From contig OZ024747.1 of NCBI GenBank assembly GCA_964016885.1, positions 10,478,001-10,542,000 on the forward strand: DNA of 64,000 nt, written 5' to 3'. This document shows positions 18,138 to 62,849 of the stretch, piece after piece (positions within the stretch are counted from its first letter, which is position 1; the number at the start of each line of letters is the position of its first letter). The position numbers and the translations under genes are program-made. This stretch comes from Eledone cirrhosa. Its lineage: Eukaryota. The notes beneath the pieces were generated by a model that saw only the letters and a list, made by a program, of their open reading frames with translations, ran no database searches and was not told where the DNA came from.

Positions 18138-18392
<255 letters not shown>

Positions 18393-21050: not shown

Positions 21051-21158
21051 CTGTCTATCTCTCTTCCTGTCTTCCCTCTCTCATGCACACTCTCTCTCCC
21101 ACTCTGTCAGATGCTTACCTTTTCTATCTCTCACTCACTCTCTCTCCCAGACACTTAC

Positions 21159-21407
21159 CTGAAGCCGGCCATCGAGGGTGCGCTGTATTGTGACACATTT
21201 CGTAGGGTGAGCGCCGTTTGTCGTAATCGCAGTAATCAAACTGTCCAGCTCGTCACGTTTCTCCTTCAGCTTCTTCACCAAGCTCTCAATCGCTCTCTTC
21301 GCAAAGCTCTCGCTTTCACCGCCTTGCCGGTGACACATCAGACTGTGGACAATGCTGAGGCAGGCGTCTGCGGACGTCGGCGCCTGGCTGGTTATCGCAG
21401 TGTGCAT
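21159..21407 (-). CDS. SMAD4: SMAD4/Medea first coding exon (MH1 N-terminal half), 249 nt
   Basis: Translates [83 protein letters not shown], the Co-Smad MH1 signature. Ends CAG|GTAAGT in phase 0. ATG at 21407; a possible acceptor for the 5' UTR part lies at 21632-21633. Confidence 0.97.
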
Positions 21408-21769
21408 GATGTCCGTTGCCCTCACCACCCGAGCGGTAGCGGTGGGGGTGGGAGGAGGAGGTAGGCGATAGAGGGAGAGGTGGAGGTGAAGGAAGAGACA
21501 AAGACAAACACTTGAAAGGGGGGTCAGGACAGAATAATAGGGGGAAAAAAAACAGGTGTGCAGGGAGTGGGGTGGGGTGGGGGACAAGTGGTGCAGGTGG
21601 GGGAGGGGTGTTTACTGTCTTTTTACAGTTGCTACGACCAAGAAGATTAAACAATTTAATGAGACTAAAAGTGATCGTTCACCAACATAGGTATGTGCTG
21701 TTCACCACACCATATACTGGTAGTGGTCAGCAGCACATGTAAGTACTGTACACCAACATAGACATATGT

Positions 21770-32436: not shown

Positions 32437-32700
32437 TTGATCATAGGTTTGATTGATCAGGGCTGACCTAGGGCTAAACAACAACACAAACCTTTGATCA
32501 GAGGTCTACTTGATCAGGGCTGACCTAGGGTTAAACAACAACACAAACCTTTGATCATAGGTCTACTTGATCAGGGCTGACCTAGGGCTAAACAACAACA
32601 CAAACCTTTGATCATAGGTCTACTTGATCAGGGCTGACCCAGGGCTGAACTACAACACAAACCTTTGATCAGGGCTGACCTAGGGCTAAACTACAACATA
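32437..32700. repeat. ~58-bp tandem amplification of the 3' end of a dispersed repeat
   Basis: CTTTGATCATAGGTCTACTTGATCAGGGCTGACCTAGGGCTAAACAACAACACAAAC about 4-5 times. Single diverged relatives at ~5570-5625 and 37330-37385. Confidence 0.85.
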
Positions 32701-33117: not shown

Positions 33118-33152
<35 letters not shown>

Positions 33153-33153
<1 letters not shown>

Positions 33154-33465
33154 TATAAGATCAAAAGATGGTTAAAGGAGTTCCATGTATTTTATTATGC
33201 GCATTTCAAAAACAAACATCATCATGCAATAATATTTGTGTTTTCATCAGATAAAACAGGAGAACATGATATGAAGGCTAAAAAACACTTGTGGATAGTG
33301 CAGTTTTAAATCAACTGCACTATCCACAAGTGTTTTTTAGCCTTCATATCATGTTCTCCTGTTTTATCTGATGAAAACACAAATATTATTGCATGATGAT
33401 GTTTGTTTTTGAAATGCGCATAATAAAATACATGGAACTCCTTTAACCATCTTTTGATCTTATAT
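33153..33465. repeat. Perfect fold-back palindrome, 153-bp arms, 7-nt loop
   Basis: 33153-33305 is the reverse complement of 33313-33465; loop TTAAATC; next to (TA)n. Confidence 0.95.
33362..33428 (+). ncRNA. Minimal type I hammerhead ribozyme (mirror copy on - at 33190-33256)
   Basis: TTTTAT-CTGATGA-long stem II-GAAA-TGCGCA-TA|ATAAAA; palindromic TGCGCA at stem III. Confidence 0.7.
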
Positions 33466-33579
33466 TATGTATACTCCAGTCCTACAAACTGTAGAGTGCT
33501 TCTTATCCGATATCTGCATTGCTTTATTGTACTACAATAAAACTCACCTCCTACATTATATATATATATATATATATAT

Positions 33580-52438: not shown

Positions 52439-52813
52439 TATATATATATATATACACATACACGCACACACATAAGTGTACATAATAAACACAGCCGACA
52501 CAAAAAGCAACAGAGAGAGAAAGAATGATATATTATATATATATAAATATATATATAAATGGAATAGAATGAAACGAAATTTCATTTCTCACTCTTAGTA
52601 CGGCAGTTACTTAAATGTAAGCATGTATACGTACATACATATATGTATACAGACGGACAGTAGTATGTATATATATATACATACATGCACGTATTGTATT
52701 CGGTGCGCCCAGCCGACTAAACTCACTCGATATGCAAATTAGGCTGCTCAGCCGTTAATATGCATAAGGAACGTAAATACTTTCAGACGTTCAACCATCT
52801 GGCAAGAAGGTAT

Positions 52814-52856
52814 ACGATGCTGACGATAGCTAATAAGCTTGAAACTAGTACATCGT
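52814..52856 (+). ncRNA. Minimal type I hammerhead ribozyme
   Basis: ACGATG-CTGACGA-t AGCT aata AGCT t-GAAA-CTAG-TA|CATCGT. Perfect 6-bp stem I, intact core, 4-bp stem II, palindromic ACTAGT at stem III, predicted GUA cleavage after 52850. Confidence 0.75.
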
Positions 52857-52953
52857 TCCTGTGTCAGTGTTGAACAAAAAGGTGACTTGGTTGCCTAAAC
52901 ACTGTACGGCGTAATTCGGGCTGTTTGTTTGTTTACAAACAAACAAATCGAGC

Positions 52954-58620: not shown

Positions 58621-59065
58621 CATACAACAGCAGACGTAACACAATCGTTATTTTGAGGCCCTAAGCACTTCAAAGAGTATGGTAACCCCCCCCCCCCATC
58701 AAATCTACAAAAGATTGCGGGGCAGGGAGAAGGGGGTTTAATAAATCAAATTTCAAAAAAAAAATGGTGCCCCCCCCCCTCCCTTGATACCCTAAACGTG
58801 TTTATTTTGTTCCATGTCCAAGCCACCCGCTTTAGCTATGTCTATTTAGAGTTCAAAGGGAGCCACTGCCTTAGACTTTGCCTAACATTCTTCCAGGGTT
58901 GATCAAAATAAGAACTGACCAAGTACAGGGGCCGATTTATCTGACCTCCTGATTGACCTACACTTCATTTGTTTACCGAGTGGAATGGACGTCGTCAGAT
59001 TTGACTGAGGAAATAATGTTTACATTGGTCTTTCCAATTGCTAATACTATCAGTTGCAGCTCCTA

Positions 59066-59168
59066 GGTTACAGCACCTAGGTCTCCCAAGAGGTCACCCA
59101 TCTAAGTATTAACTAGGCTCAACGCTGCTTAACTTCGATGATCAGATGAGAACCAGTGTTTTCAGTGT
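59066..59168 (-). pseudogene. 5S rRNA pseudogene, 5'-truncated and degenerate
   Basis: Minus strand reads CACTGAAAACACTGGTTCTCATCTGATCATCGAAGTTAAGCAGCGTTGAGCCTAGTTAATACTTAGATGGGTGACCTCTTGGGAGACCTAGGTGCTGTAACC. Colinear with metazoan 5S rRNA, including box A (AGTTAAGC) and box C (GATGGGTGACC); about the first 14 nt are missing. Confidence 0.88.
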
Positions 59169-59345
59169 AATAATTGTTTCTACTTTGGGCACAAGGCCAG
59201 CAATTACCCAGTACATTACTGGTACTTTATTTTATCGATCCCGTAAGGATGAAAGGCAAAGCTAACCTGGATGGGATTTGAACACAGAGCGTAAGAGGAC
59301 GTAACTATATGCTGTTAAGTATATAGTCCAGCACTCTGTCAATCC
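59169..59345 (-). mobile_element. SINE family A abutting the 5S pseudogene
   Basis: The tail AATAATTGTTTCTACTTTGGGCACAAGGCC begins immediately at the truncated 5' end of the 5S copy. Confidence 0.8.
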
Positions 59346-59797: not shown

Positions 59798-60063
59798 CAT
59801 GAAGTACAAGTCAACAGGTTATATACACACACATATATATATTTACTATTCATGCTGTGTGGTTTACCAATGGGTAGATCTGGTTATTCCAGTTAGTAAA
59901 CCGTTGAAAATATATATATATATATATATGCAGAGGTTATATTTAATTTGTTGGGATTCAACAAGCTTAACATTTTTTATAACTGATATAAAGCACTCAA
60001 CAGATTAGTGGAGTAAATATACAATATATTAATAAATGGAAACTATATTTATAAAACCATAAT

Positions 60064-60129
60064 TATTTTATTATATATATTTCAAGGGCAACCAAGGCAA
60101 ATTATGGTGCGCTTTCATCAGATAAAATA
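60064..60129 (-). ncRNA. Minimal type I hammerhead ribozyme
   Basis: TATTTTAT-CTGATGA-aagcgcacca..tggttgccctt-GAAA-TATATA-TA|ATAAAATA. Its paralogue at 60834-60899 (+) has TTGATGA, i.e. a core C-to-T mutation. Confidence 0.7.
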
Positions 60130-60236
60130 CAGATTTTATATATATATGTAAAGTTATATTTAAAATTGTTGGGTTACAACTAGTAAATATTTATAACTGA
60201 TATAAAAGCACTCGACAAATATTTGGAGTATATTTA

Positions 60237-60595
60237 CAATATTAAATAAATGGAAAACTATATTTATAAAACCATATCTATTTCATTATATATATTTCGG
60301 GGATATCATATTAACAATATGCTATGCCTTCATCAGACAAAATACAATATAAACAGTTTTATAGATAAATATATTCGACATACCGTAATAAACATCAACT
60401 TCATTTGAAGAGGTTTACGCTCTTCAAATGAAGTTGATGTTTATTACGGTATGTCGAATATATTTATCTATAAAACTGTTTATATTGTATTTTGTCTGAT
60501 GAAGGCATAGCATATTGTTAATATGATATCCCCGAAATATATATAATGAAATAGATATGGTTTTATAAATATAGTTTTCCATTTATTTAATATTG
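60237..60595. repeat. Perfect fold-back palindrome, 176-bp arms, 7-nt loop
   Basis: 60237-60412 is the reverse complement of 60420-60595; loop GTTTACG. Confidence 0.95.
60488..60553 (+). ncRNA. Minimal type I hammerhead ribozyme (mirror copy on - at 60279-60344)
   Basis: TATTTTGT-CTGATGA-aggcatagcatatt gtt aatatgatatcccc-GAAA-TATATA-TA|ATGAAATA; 8-bp stem I with two G-U pairs. Confidence 0.65.
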
Positions 60596-61028
60596 ATTTT
60601 ATATATATATATATTTTTTCTTTTTTCTCTCTCCCTCACATATCACCTTCTTCCAACAGTTTAATTTAAATAAACCGTTATCTTTTCAACCTTTCGGACA
60701 CTCATTTGCATACTCAATCATAATTTTCTATCACCCTCAATAAATGTAATATCTCCACTATCCAGGAAGCTCCAACCGTTAAGGTTGTCTTTTTTTTCCC
60801 GGTATGTCAATATTTATTTATAAAACAAATTTGTATTTTATTTGATGAAAGCGCACCGTAATTTGCCTTGGTGGCCCTTGAAATATGTATAATAAAATAA
60901 ATATGGTTTTATAAATATAGTTTCCATTTATTAATATATTGTGTATTTACTCCACTTATCTGTTGAGTGCTTTATATCAGCTATAAAATGTTTAAGCTTG
61001 TTGAATCCCAACAAATTAAATATAACCT

Positions 61029-61071
<43 letters not shown>

Positions 61072-61180
61072 GGAGGTGAGTTTTATTGTAGTACAATAAA
61101 GCAATGCAGATATCGGATAAGAAGCACTCTGAAATGCGCATAATAAAATACATGGAACTCCTTTAACCATCTTTTGATCT

Positions 61181-61254
<74 letters not shown>

Positions 61255-62734: not shown

Positions 62735-62844
62735 ATAGGAACCAGTAAGACCCCGACAGCTGAGCTCAAGCCGTTTCGACGGCTAATTCTGACGGCTAAT
62801 TCCGTCGAAACGGCTTGAGCTCAGCTGTCGGGGTCTTACTGGTT

Positions 62845-62849
<5 letters not shown>
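62735..62849. repeat. Perfect inverted repeat, 48-bp arms, 19-nt spacer, containing a hammerhead 3' half
   Basis: 62735-62782 pairs with 62802-62849. The element (~62657-62849) is bounded by (TA)n on both sides. Confidence 0.93.

What the first reader, a model, noticed from the sequence alone, without database searches (positions are those of the whole stretch)
33153..33560. Perfect 153-bp fold-back placing the same hammerhead on both strands
Seen: arms with no mismatch I could find and a 7-nt loop, containing TTTTAT-CTGATGA-stem II-GAAA-TGCGCA-TA-ATAAAA. The 3' extension (33492-33555) and the ribozyme 3' half recur, rearranged and inverted, at 61068-61186. The unrelated palindrome at 60237-60595 also has a 7-nt loop and (TA)n flanks. 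Inference: a shared snap-back or inverted pseudo-LTR mechanism of Penelope-like insertion into (TA)n, with arm identity indicating recent insertion or arm-to-arm conversion. In RNA the hairpin would sequester the ribozyme and form long dsRNA, a potential ADAR or Dicer substrate; extensive A-to-I editing is established in coleoid cephalopods.
Basis: partly seen in the sequence, partly recalled or inferred. Interest (0 to 1): 0.7.

Follow-up and report, generated by a model that had tools for sequence, protein, structure and literature searches.

The report
Double-primed Hydra Penelope retrotransposon stub
This mirror-image stretch is one of over two thousand short head-to-head leftovers of a young Penelope-like jumping gene, a known layout, and their joints suggest that both cut ends of the target DNA likely copy the same capped RNA before the two copies are stitched together.

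Summary
Observation confirmed: perfect 153-bp arms, 7-nt loop, and a minimal type I hammerhead motif on each strand. It is the stub of a young, high-copy Penelope-like element (PLE): 15,714 exact hits of a 25-mer, and long copies carry an open RT/GIY-YIG frame with Hydra-clade motifs. An inverted pLTR with a one-sided tail in (TA)n is published, so the layout is not new.

The family adds mechanism. 2,209 palindromes turn near one fixed site. 40 of 100 listed copies stop exactly there, and 1,982 carry an extra G, likely a copied cap. 60 of 65 head-to-head pairs join one tailed and one tail-less arm, and 6 of those 60 have halves that do not overlap. Arms share subfamily alleles (112 of 120) but decay separately. 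This favours two cDNAs primed from both target ends on one capped, uncleaved RNA over pure snap-back or arm conversion.

Corrections: the 60237 palindrome is a second hammerhead-bearing family of the same kind, the shared loop length is chance, and ADAR/Dicer activity is untested. Earlier scan notes reached a similar double-priming reading on other DNA of this genome.

The parts
33121..33152 (.). Left (TA)n target run
   Evidence: sequence
33153..33315 (-). Tail-less arm: element positions about +5 to +167 counted from the fixed 5' stop site; it includes the 7-nt loop and a 3-nt microhomology shared with the right arm
   Evidence: the loop equals the element's own sequence upstream of the arm, read on the minus strand
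33306..33312 (-). 7-nt loop, element-encoded, belonging to the tail-less arm (as in 28 of 30 oriented loci with this junction)
33188..33258 (-). Minimal type I hammerhead motif, mirror copy; predicted cut between 33196 and 33195
33313..33465 (+). Tail-bearing arm: element positions +15 to +167
33360..33430 (+). Minimal type I hammerhead motif: CUGAUGA 33368-33374, GAAA 33411-33414, self-complementary stem III 33414-33421, predicted cut after 33422
33466..33555 (+). One-sided tail of about 90 nt; in tandem full-length copies it continues into the 5' UTR ahead of the ORF
   Evidence: L044, L013, L043
33556..33628 (.). Right (TA)n target run
   Evidence: sequence
61068..61130 (-). Second insertion of the same family, tail half (about +195 to +258); does not overlap its partner half
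61130..61186 (+). Second insertion, tail-less half (about +112 to +167), with the 3' half of the hammerhead; 1-nt shared junction
60144..60595 (.). Head-to-head stub of a second hammerhead-bearing family: tail 60144-60236 and arm on the minus strand, tail-less arm 60420-60595; hammerhead motifs 60279-60344 (-) and 60488-60553 (+)

Best explanation
The palindrome is a short head-to-head insertion of a young Hydra-type Penelope-like retrotransposon, likely made when both cut ends of a (TA)n target each primed a cDNA on the same capped, uncleaved element RNA and the two cDNA ends were then joined. Shown: the family, its open RT/GIY-YIG frame, the one-tail/one-tail-less layout, the fixed 5' stop with extra G, the shared alleles and the 3-nt microhomology. 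Inferred steps: (1) Pol II starts at the fixed site (+1, about 70 nt upstream of the hammerhead core) and caps the RNA. (2) The endonuclease cuts both strands of a TA run. (3) One 3' end primes at the tail start (+167 to +177), the other at the tail end (+258). (4) Both reverse transcriptases run toward the 5' end, the tail-less one usually ahead, and often copy the cap as an extra C. (5) The two cDNA 3' ends join end to end or through 1-4 nt of microhomology, and fill-in gives the palindrome. At this locus the tail-less cDNA ended at +5 and paired through 3 nt at +15 to +17, either on its partner or by folding on itself and then moving to the partner. The two hammerheads are a by-product; in a read-through RNA the 153-bp hairpin would bury them.
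For: Family: 15,714 exact hits of a hammerhead 25-mer, control 0. An 821-residue stop-free frame with RT and C-terminal GIY-YIG-type motifs lies in L032, whose pLTR and tail are 99% identical to the window arm. Layout: 60 of 65 head-to-head pairs not chosen by junction are one tailed plus one tail-less arm; in family 2, all 21 distinct loci fetched have exactly one tail. Two separate cDNAs: 6 of the 60 pairs, 4 of the 21 family-2 loci and window 61068-61186 have halves that do not overlap or lack the matching arm. Extra G occurs on tail-less arms (22 rows) and on tailed arms (12 rows), and on both arms of one palindrome in 8 places of the listing (counted by eye). Fixed 5' end: of 100 places listed, 60 run through, 40 stop at +1 and none stops in the 27 nt upstream (counted by eye). 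2,209 palindromes turn near this site. 1,982 copies have G before +1 where long copies have C; none of the 100 listed is a simple C-to-G change in a run-through copy. In 30 rows checked, 14-16 have a G that neither template supplies, 3 follow a tandem copy of the 5' end and the rest are ambiguous. One source RNA: diagnostic alleles lie in both arms 112 of 120 times, 16 expected if paired at random. Order: the tail-less arm reaches further in 27 of 40 unequal pairs, p=0.04. Uncleaved template: only 63 palindromes turn near the cut site. Literature: a Poseidon PLE cleaves and extends both target strands, starts RT at two sites bracketing the tail, and uses mainly uncleaved RNA (PMC11167929). L1 full-length 5' junctions carry a cap-derived G, and twin priming is described (PMC11702581 passages).
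Against: No RNA data: the start site and cap are inferred from DNA junctions only. Shared alleles show one source locus, not strictly one RNA molecule. The tail arm reaches further in 13 of 40 unequal pairs, and 7 of 60 pairs were set aside for unresolved gaps. 5 of 65 pairs are tail+tail or tail-less+tail-less. About half of the G cases could be templated by the partner arm. Stops of the tail cDNA are spread along the tail rather than piled sharply at the second priming site. All listed samples except one search come mostly from contig C1, and counts use exact patterns that miss diverged copies. Pfam gave no hit on the ORF, and clade placement rests on motifs, not a tree.
Confidence: 0.7

Rival explanations
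1. Self-priming (snap-back): one cDNA, or an antisense template as proposed in PMC3846280, folds back and copies itself to make the second arm.
For: The window junction has the geometry of a 3-bp stem with a 7-nt loop, and it is strongly polar (28 of 30), as expected if the tail-less cDNA folds on itself. Arms match within a locus (mean 1.3 substitutions against 5.6 between loci). PMC3846280 reads junction palindromes as self-priming (passage).
Against: The strand that carries the loop continues into a tail that its own first half lacks. Non-overlapping halves exist. Many junctions have no loop or a single extra base between two full-length ends (18 and 6 of 50 places, counted by eye). Extra G is found on both arm types. 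A snap-back step followed by transfer to a second cDNA is compatible and is part of the best explanation.
Confidence: 0.15
2. Two separate RNAs from the same source locus, each copied by one half of a protein dimer, then joined head to head.
For: Fits the cap-like G on both arms, the tail+tail and tail-less pairs (5 of 65), and the predicted PLE protein dimer (PMC11167929).
Against: Does not by itself explain why nine in ten pairs are one tail plus one tail-less, or why the tail-less arm leads. With at least 9 subfamily haplotypes present, mixed arms are rare (8 of 120 alleles in one arm only).
Confidence: 0.2
3. A palindromic master copy (MITE- or SINE-like) was amplified as a unit, with arms kept equal by conversion.
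For: 100 places share the exact junction; 14 of 30 share one haplotype.
Against: The same junction sits on 9 haplotypes, five of which also carry other junctions. Junctions vary widely. Arms decay independently.
Confidence: 0.04
4. Sequencing or assembly fold-back artefact.
For: No read or contig spanning the whole locus was seen.
Against: Thousands of loci with sequence-determined junctions, a one-sided tail, arm differences at older loci, and junction-crossing pieces in run X1.
Confidence: 0.02
5. A functional RNA element of the host: a hairpin that sequesters the ribozyme and feeds ADAR or Dicer, for instance in the 5' region of the neighbouring SMAD4-like gene.
For: The hairpin would be very stable (-255.6 kcal/mol). 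A SMAD4-like coding exon lies about 11.7 kb away on the minus strand.
Against: The insertion is young and one of thousands. Nothing shows transcription across it. Arm differences in the family show no excess of A>G or T>C over C>T or G>A (17 against 18 of 58); this is a DNA-level tally and no test of editing.
Confidence: 0.05

Closest known systems
Hydra-clade Penelope-like elements (Craig et al. 2021, PMC8557442; includes Hydra-1_Obim)
   Same: C-terminal GIY-YIG, RW and DKT motifs, CxCx5C linker, CxxC and CxH flanking conserved E and N, hammerhead in the pLTR, (TA)n targets
   Different: A different family from Hydra-1_Obim by eye (visible N-terminus and hammerhead differ; no alignment run). 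Unit about 3.7 kb rather than under 3 kb, an Asn-rich insert of about 75 aa before the linker, and thousands of copies. The third residue of RWK is T or I here.
PLE insertions with inverted 5'-truncated pLTR and one-sided tail (PMC8557442 Fig. 2 legend; PMC3846280; PMC2377424)
   Same: Head-to-head inverted copy next to the pLTR, palindrome at the junction, tail at one end only
   Different: Tail is about 90 nt, not 30-40. Those papers leave the mechanism open or propose self-priming on an antisense template; a fixed 5' stop with an extra G was not in the passages I read.
Anolis Poseidon PAc in vitro (PMC11167929)
   Same: Both target strands extended, two RT start sites bracketing the tail, uncleaved RNA as template
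   Different: Different clade. The parts I read do not show how the two cDNAs are joined or how the inverted arm arises.
LINE-1 twin priming and cap-derived 5' G (PMC11702581 passages)
   Same: Second target end primes internally on the same RNA, inverted 5' segment, microhomology at the inner junction, extra G at full-length 5' ends
   Different: In L1 the two cDNAs usually abut with a 1-10 bp gap or overlap. Here the second start site is fixed and the two cDNAs usually overlap fully, giving a palindrome.
Non-LTR retrozymes (PMC7761336; bioRxiv 10.64898/2026.07.22.740005)
   Same: Short, non-coding, type I hammerhead, linked to PLEs
   Different: Retrozymes are direct tandem repeats with hammerheads on one strand that release circular RNA; this is an inverted pair.

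Membership tests
Endonuclease-positive Penelope-like element | Single ORF with RT and GIY-YIG endonuclease | tested here: met
   [quoted passage not shown] By motif only; Pfam gave no hit.
Endonuclease-positive Penelope-like element | Partial tandems forming direct pLTRs | tested here: met
   L043, L044 and L042 are pLTR-ORF-pLTR tandems
Endonuclease-positive Penelope-like element | Inverted 5'-truncated copy and one-sided tail | tested here: met
   60 of 65 pairs
Endonuclease-positive Penelope-like element | Minimal type I hammerhead motif in the pLTR | tested here: met
   core kept in 217 of 226 arm copies
Hydra clade | N-terminal RWK motif | tested here: inconclusive
   RW present, third residue T or I; most relatives have RWK
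Hydra clade | DKT in place of DKG | tested here: met
Hydra clade | CxCX5C linker upstream of the endonuclease | tested here: met
Hydra clade | No CCHH inside the GIY-YIG core; CxxC and CxH either side of conserved E and N | tested here: met
   compared with the description in PMC8557442 section 11
Hydra clade | (TA)n insertion preference | tested here: met
   flanks of nearly all of the 48 palindromes listed
Hydra clade | Groups with named Hydra RTs in a phylogeny | not tested
Neptune or Nematis clade | CX2-5CxxC linker, DKG motif and CCHH | tested here: not met
   my first guess of Neptune was dropped
Naiad clade | N-terminal endonuclease, no canonical hammerhead | tested here: not met
   endonuclease is C-terminal and a hammerhead is present
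Active hammerhead ribozyme | Self-cleavage, as monomer or dimer | not testable with these tools
   Stem III is an 8-nt palindrome able to pair only between two molecules (-10.5 kcal/mol duplex), as described for PLE hammerheads (PMC7761336 passage); no assay
Non-LTR retrozyme | Direct tandem units each with a hammerhead on the same strand | tested here: not met
   the two motifs are inverted

The most novel reading that the evidence does not exclude
The inverted pLTR of Penelope-like elements is made by obligatory twin priming. Both ends of the cut target start reverse transcription on one capped RNA, at the two ends of the tail, and both can copy the cap. When priming occurs in the first pLTR, the product is a pair of 'strong-stop' cDNAs of 170 and 260 nt joined head to head. 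The thousands of short palindromes then map the transcription start site and both priming sites to the base, and replace the antisense self-priming model.
Probability: 0.55. Interest if true: 0.65.

Novelty: new member of a known kind. Interest (0 to 1): 0.42.

Why it matters
As a single locus it is an ordinary transposon stub. As a family it is a large natural experiment on an open step: PMC8557442 states that the formation of PLE tandem and inverted structures is still undefined, and PMC3846280 proposed self-priming on an antisense template. The junction statistics point to double priming on a capped sense RNA and give exact start and priming coordinates. A young family with an open reading frame is available for testing. 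It also shows that these genomes gain thousands of perfect 150-175 bp hairpins as a by-product, a possible but untested source of dsRNA.

Tried and rejected
Rfam found no hammerhead in the window at E<=1. DNA similarity search of G000 returned nothing, not even the locus itself, so it was uninformative. Pfam gave no hit on three ORF copies. Neptune assignment was rejected on motifs. The apparent fixed boundary at 33313 was an artefact of my query's end; the true fixed site lies 14 nt upstream. BLAST extents at window-type junctions were spurious and not used. Duplicated loci were removed before counting (7 dropped by hand, 3 by script, one of the latter probably wrongly). No RNA holder was listed for the stretch, which says nothing on expression. 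The raw-read run X22 and the contig run X10 laid nothing, so they were no test. Use of hammerhead-cleaved RNA as template: 63 fold-backs near the cut site, mostly turning on the stem III palindrome; about 7 of 50 listed end within a few bases of the cut, a hint at most. A sharp stall of the tail cDNA at the second priming site was suggested by 6 cases but not sharp in the listing. An autonomous partner for family 2 was not found in 30 fetched loci (one unrelated-position hit). Paper searches that found no description of a fixed cap-G stop or twin priming in PLEs; most subscription papers, including Arkhipova 2006, are outside this library.

Full report
Observation. The palindrome is as described: exact 153-nt arms at 33153-33305 and 33313-33465 with a 7-nt loop, between (TA)n runs. 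A descriptor scan finds a minimal type I hammerhead motif on each arm, with an 8-bp stem I, CUGAUGA, stem II, GAAA and a self-complementary stem III. Rfam lists none. The right arm continues for about 90 nt (33466-33555) with no counterpart on the left. Pieces of both recur at 61068-61186. The 60237 palindrome shares no sequence with this one but carries its own hammerhead on each arm and its own one-sided tail.

The family. A 25-mer from the hammerhead's 3' half occurs 15,714 times in G000, mirrored control 0. Long copies are pLTR-ORF-pLTR tandems or head-to-head pairs of variably 5'-truncated copies. L032 holds an 821-residue stop-free frame, and its pLTR and tail are 99% identical to the window arm. 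Pfam gives no hit, but 25 relatives at E<=1e-20 align across RT and a C-terminal endonuclease (15 of the 25 aligned). The protein has DKT, a CxCx5C linker, and CxxC and CxH around the conserved E and N, which are the Hydra-clade marks of PMC8557442 (section 11 read). That paper's supplement lists an octopus Hydra family with (TA)n preference. No tree was built. My calls did not establish the host taxon; earlier scan notes call it octopus, unchecked.

What is already known. An inverted 5'-truncated copy beside the pLTR and a tail at one end are the standard PLE layout (PMC8557442 passages). PMC3846280 describes palindromes at the inverted junction and reads them as self-priming on an antisense template (passages). 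PMC2377424 maps the Drosophila Penelope promoter inside the pLTR (passages). PMC11167929 shows in vitro that a Poseidon protein cuts and extends both target strands, starts at two sites that bracket the tail, and uses mostly uncleaved RNA (parts 1 and 2 of 4 read). PLE hammerheads are minimal and may cut as dimers (PMC7761336 passages). The layout is therefore not new.

Where the arms end. All long copies read TC then A at one site 14 nt upstream of the base that matches window 33313; I call that A +1. 2,209 palindromes turn within about 15 nt of it. Of 100 places listed with 28 nt of upstream context, 60 run through, 40 stop at +1 and none stops in the 27 nt upstream (counted by eye; contig C1 only). 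1,982 copies have G directly before +1, where the element has C. In 30 rows checked by script, 16 were scored as having a G supplied by neither template, 11 as possibly partner-templated and 3 as following a tandem copy of the 5' end; inspection moves two or three rows, hence 14-16. An extra G at full-length 5' junctions is the cap signature in L1 (PMC11702581 passage). I infer that +1 is the capped transcription start. Family 2 repeats the pattern: 870 hits, very few run-through copies, a stop at a TC-A site, and G before it in about 9 of the listed places (by eye). Only 63 palindromes of family 1 turn near the predicted ribozyme cut, so the template was nearly always uncleaved.

How the arms were made. 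Among head-to-head pairs not chosen by junction, 60 of 65 join one tailed and one tail-less arm, and all 21 distinct family-2 loci have exactly one tail. In 6 of the 60, and at window 61068-61186, the two halves do not overlap, so neither can be a copy of the other. Extra G is found on tail-less arms (22 rows) and tailed arms (12 rows), and on both arms of single palindromes. Many junctions have no loop, or one base between two full-length ends (18 and 6 of 50). These points need two separately primed cDNAs. Diagnostic alleles sit in both arms 112 of 120 times against 16 expected (46 loci), so both come from one source. The tail-less arm reaches further in 27 of 40 unequal pairs (p=0.04; 13 equal and 7 unresolved set aside), as expected if it runs ahead on the same RNA. 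Two RNAs from one locus are not excluded.

This locus. The loop is element sequence: the minus strand follows the element from +5 through the loop, and +5 to +7 is the reverse complement of +15 to +17. The same junction occurs at 100 places, on 9 haplotypes among 30 loci, so it was formed repeatedly. The loop belongs to the tail-less arm in 28 of 30 oriented loci. Either the tail-less cDNA end paired with its partner through 3 nt, or it folded on itself and the new strand then moved to the tailed cDNA; the sequence cannot tell these apart. The 7-nt loop at 60413-60419 is likewise element sequence cut at a 2-nt microhomology and belongs to the tailed arm there, so the equal lengths are chance.

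Age and conversion. Arms differ by 1.3 substitutions on average within a locus and 5.6 between loci; 22 of 47 pairs have no substitution. Private changes are in one arm 45 times and in both 6 times, and the one-arm rate equals the tail rate. Identity reflects a common template and youth; conversion is not needed.

RNA-level claims. A read-through RNA would fold into a -255.6 kcal/mol hairpin that buries both motifs. A SMAD4-like coding exon lies about 11.7 kb away on the minus strand; whether its transcript spans the locus is unknown. No RNA run was available, so editing and dicing are untested.

Artefact. Unlikely, given the number, polarity and haplotype spread of the junctions and exact junction-crossing pieces in run X1. 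No record spans the locus, and X1 may be the source sample.

Verdict. A real feature and a new family member of a known kind. The value lies in the family-wide junction evidence for double priming on a capped RNA, which I did not find in six paper searches of a library that lacks most subscription papers. Supplements of the bioRxiv preprint were not seen. Earlier scan notes on other DNA of this genome reached a similar reading; I had formed mine before reading them, and they are not independent support.

Noticed in passing
window 18138-18392 and 21138-21611, minus strand: Two exons with MH1 domain hits; the translation reads like the N-terminus of SMAD4/Medea (label from my own knowledge). The start codon is near 21407.
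   Followed up: partly
window 59929-60133 (-) and 60640-61030 (+): Two more hammerhead-bearing copies, 93% alike and about 78% similar to the 60237 family, flank that palindrome in inverted orientation; the right one has a degenerate UUGAUGA core. With 61068-61186, several insertions are nested in TA runs within 1.3 kb.
   Followed up: partly
window 52812-52858 (+): A further minimal hammerhead motif of a third type with a palindromic stem III.
   Followed up: no
window 62735-62849: Perfect 48-nt arms with a 19-nt loop; a similar short repeat lies beside family-1 insertions in L014, L033, L034, L041, L044, L047, L054, L055, L067 and L070, apparently another (TA)n-targeting family.
   Followed up: no
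window 59065-59181 (-): 5S rRNA-like sequence above the Rfam gathering score (71.8 bits), degenerate; possibly a pseudogene or the head of a 5S-derived SINE.
   Followed up: no
L206, L207, L203 (G000:C1 near 53125152, 56027190, 37395296): Short tandem re-copies of the first 8-17 nt of the element at the junction, suggesting repeated template jumps onto the RNA 5' end.
   Followed up: partly
L032:1629-4091 (P0001, residues about 605-680): An Asn-rich insert of about 75 residues between the RT thumb region and the linker, absent from most relatives; N-rich inserts are described for rotifer Penelopes in PMC3846280.
   Followed up: no
public runs X4-X20: The repeat is held by runs labelled as many different organisms across 15 studies, so the family or close relatives are probably spread over several species; only X4, X6 and X7 among the other organisms were laid with any cover.
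   Followed up: partly
window 32440-32700: Tandem array of a unit of about 58 bp just left of the finding.
   Followed up: no
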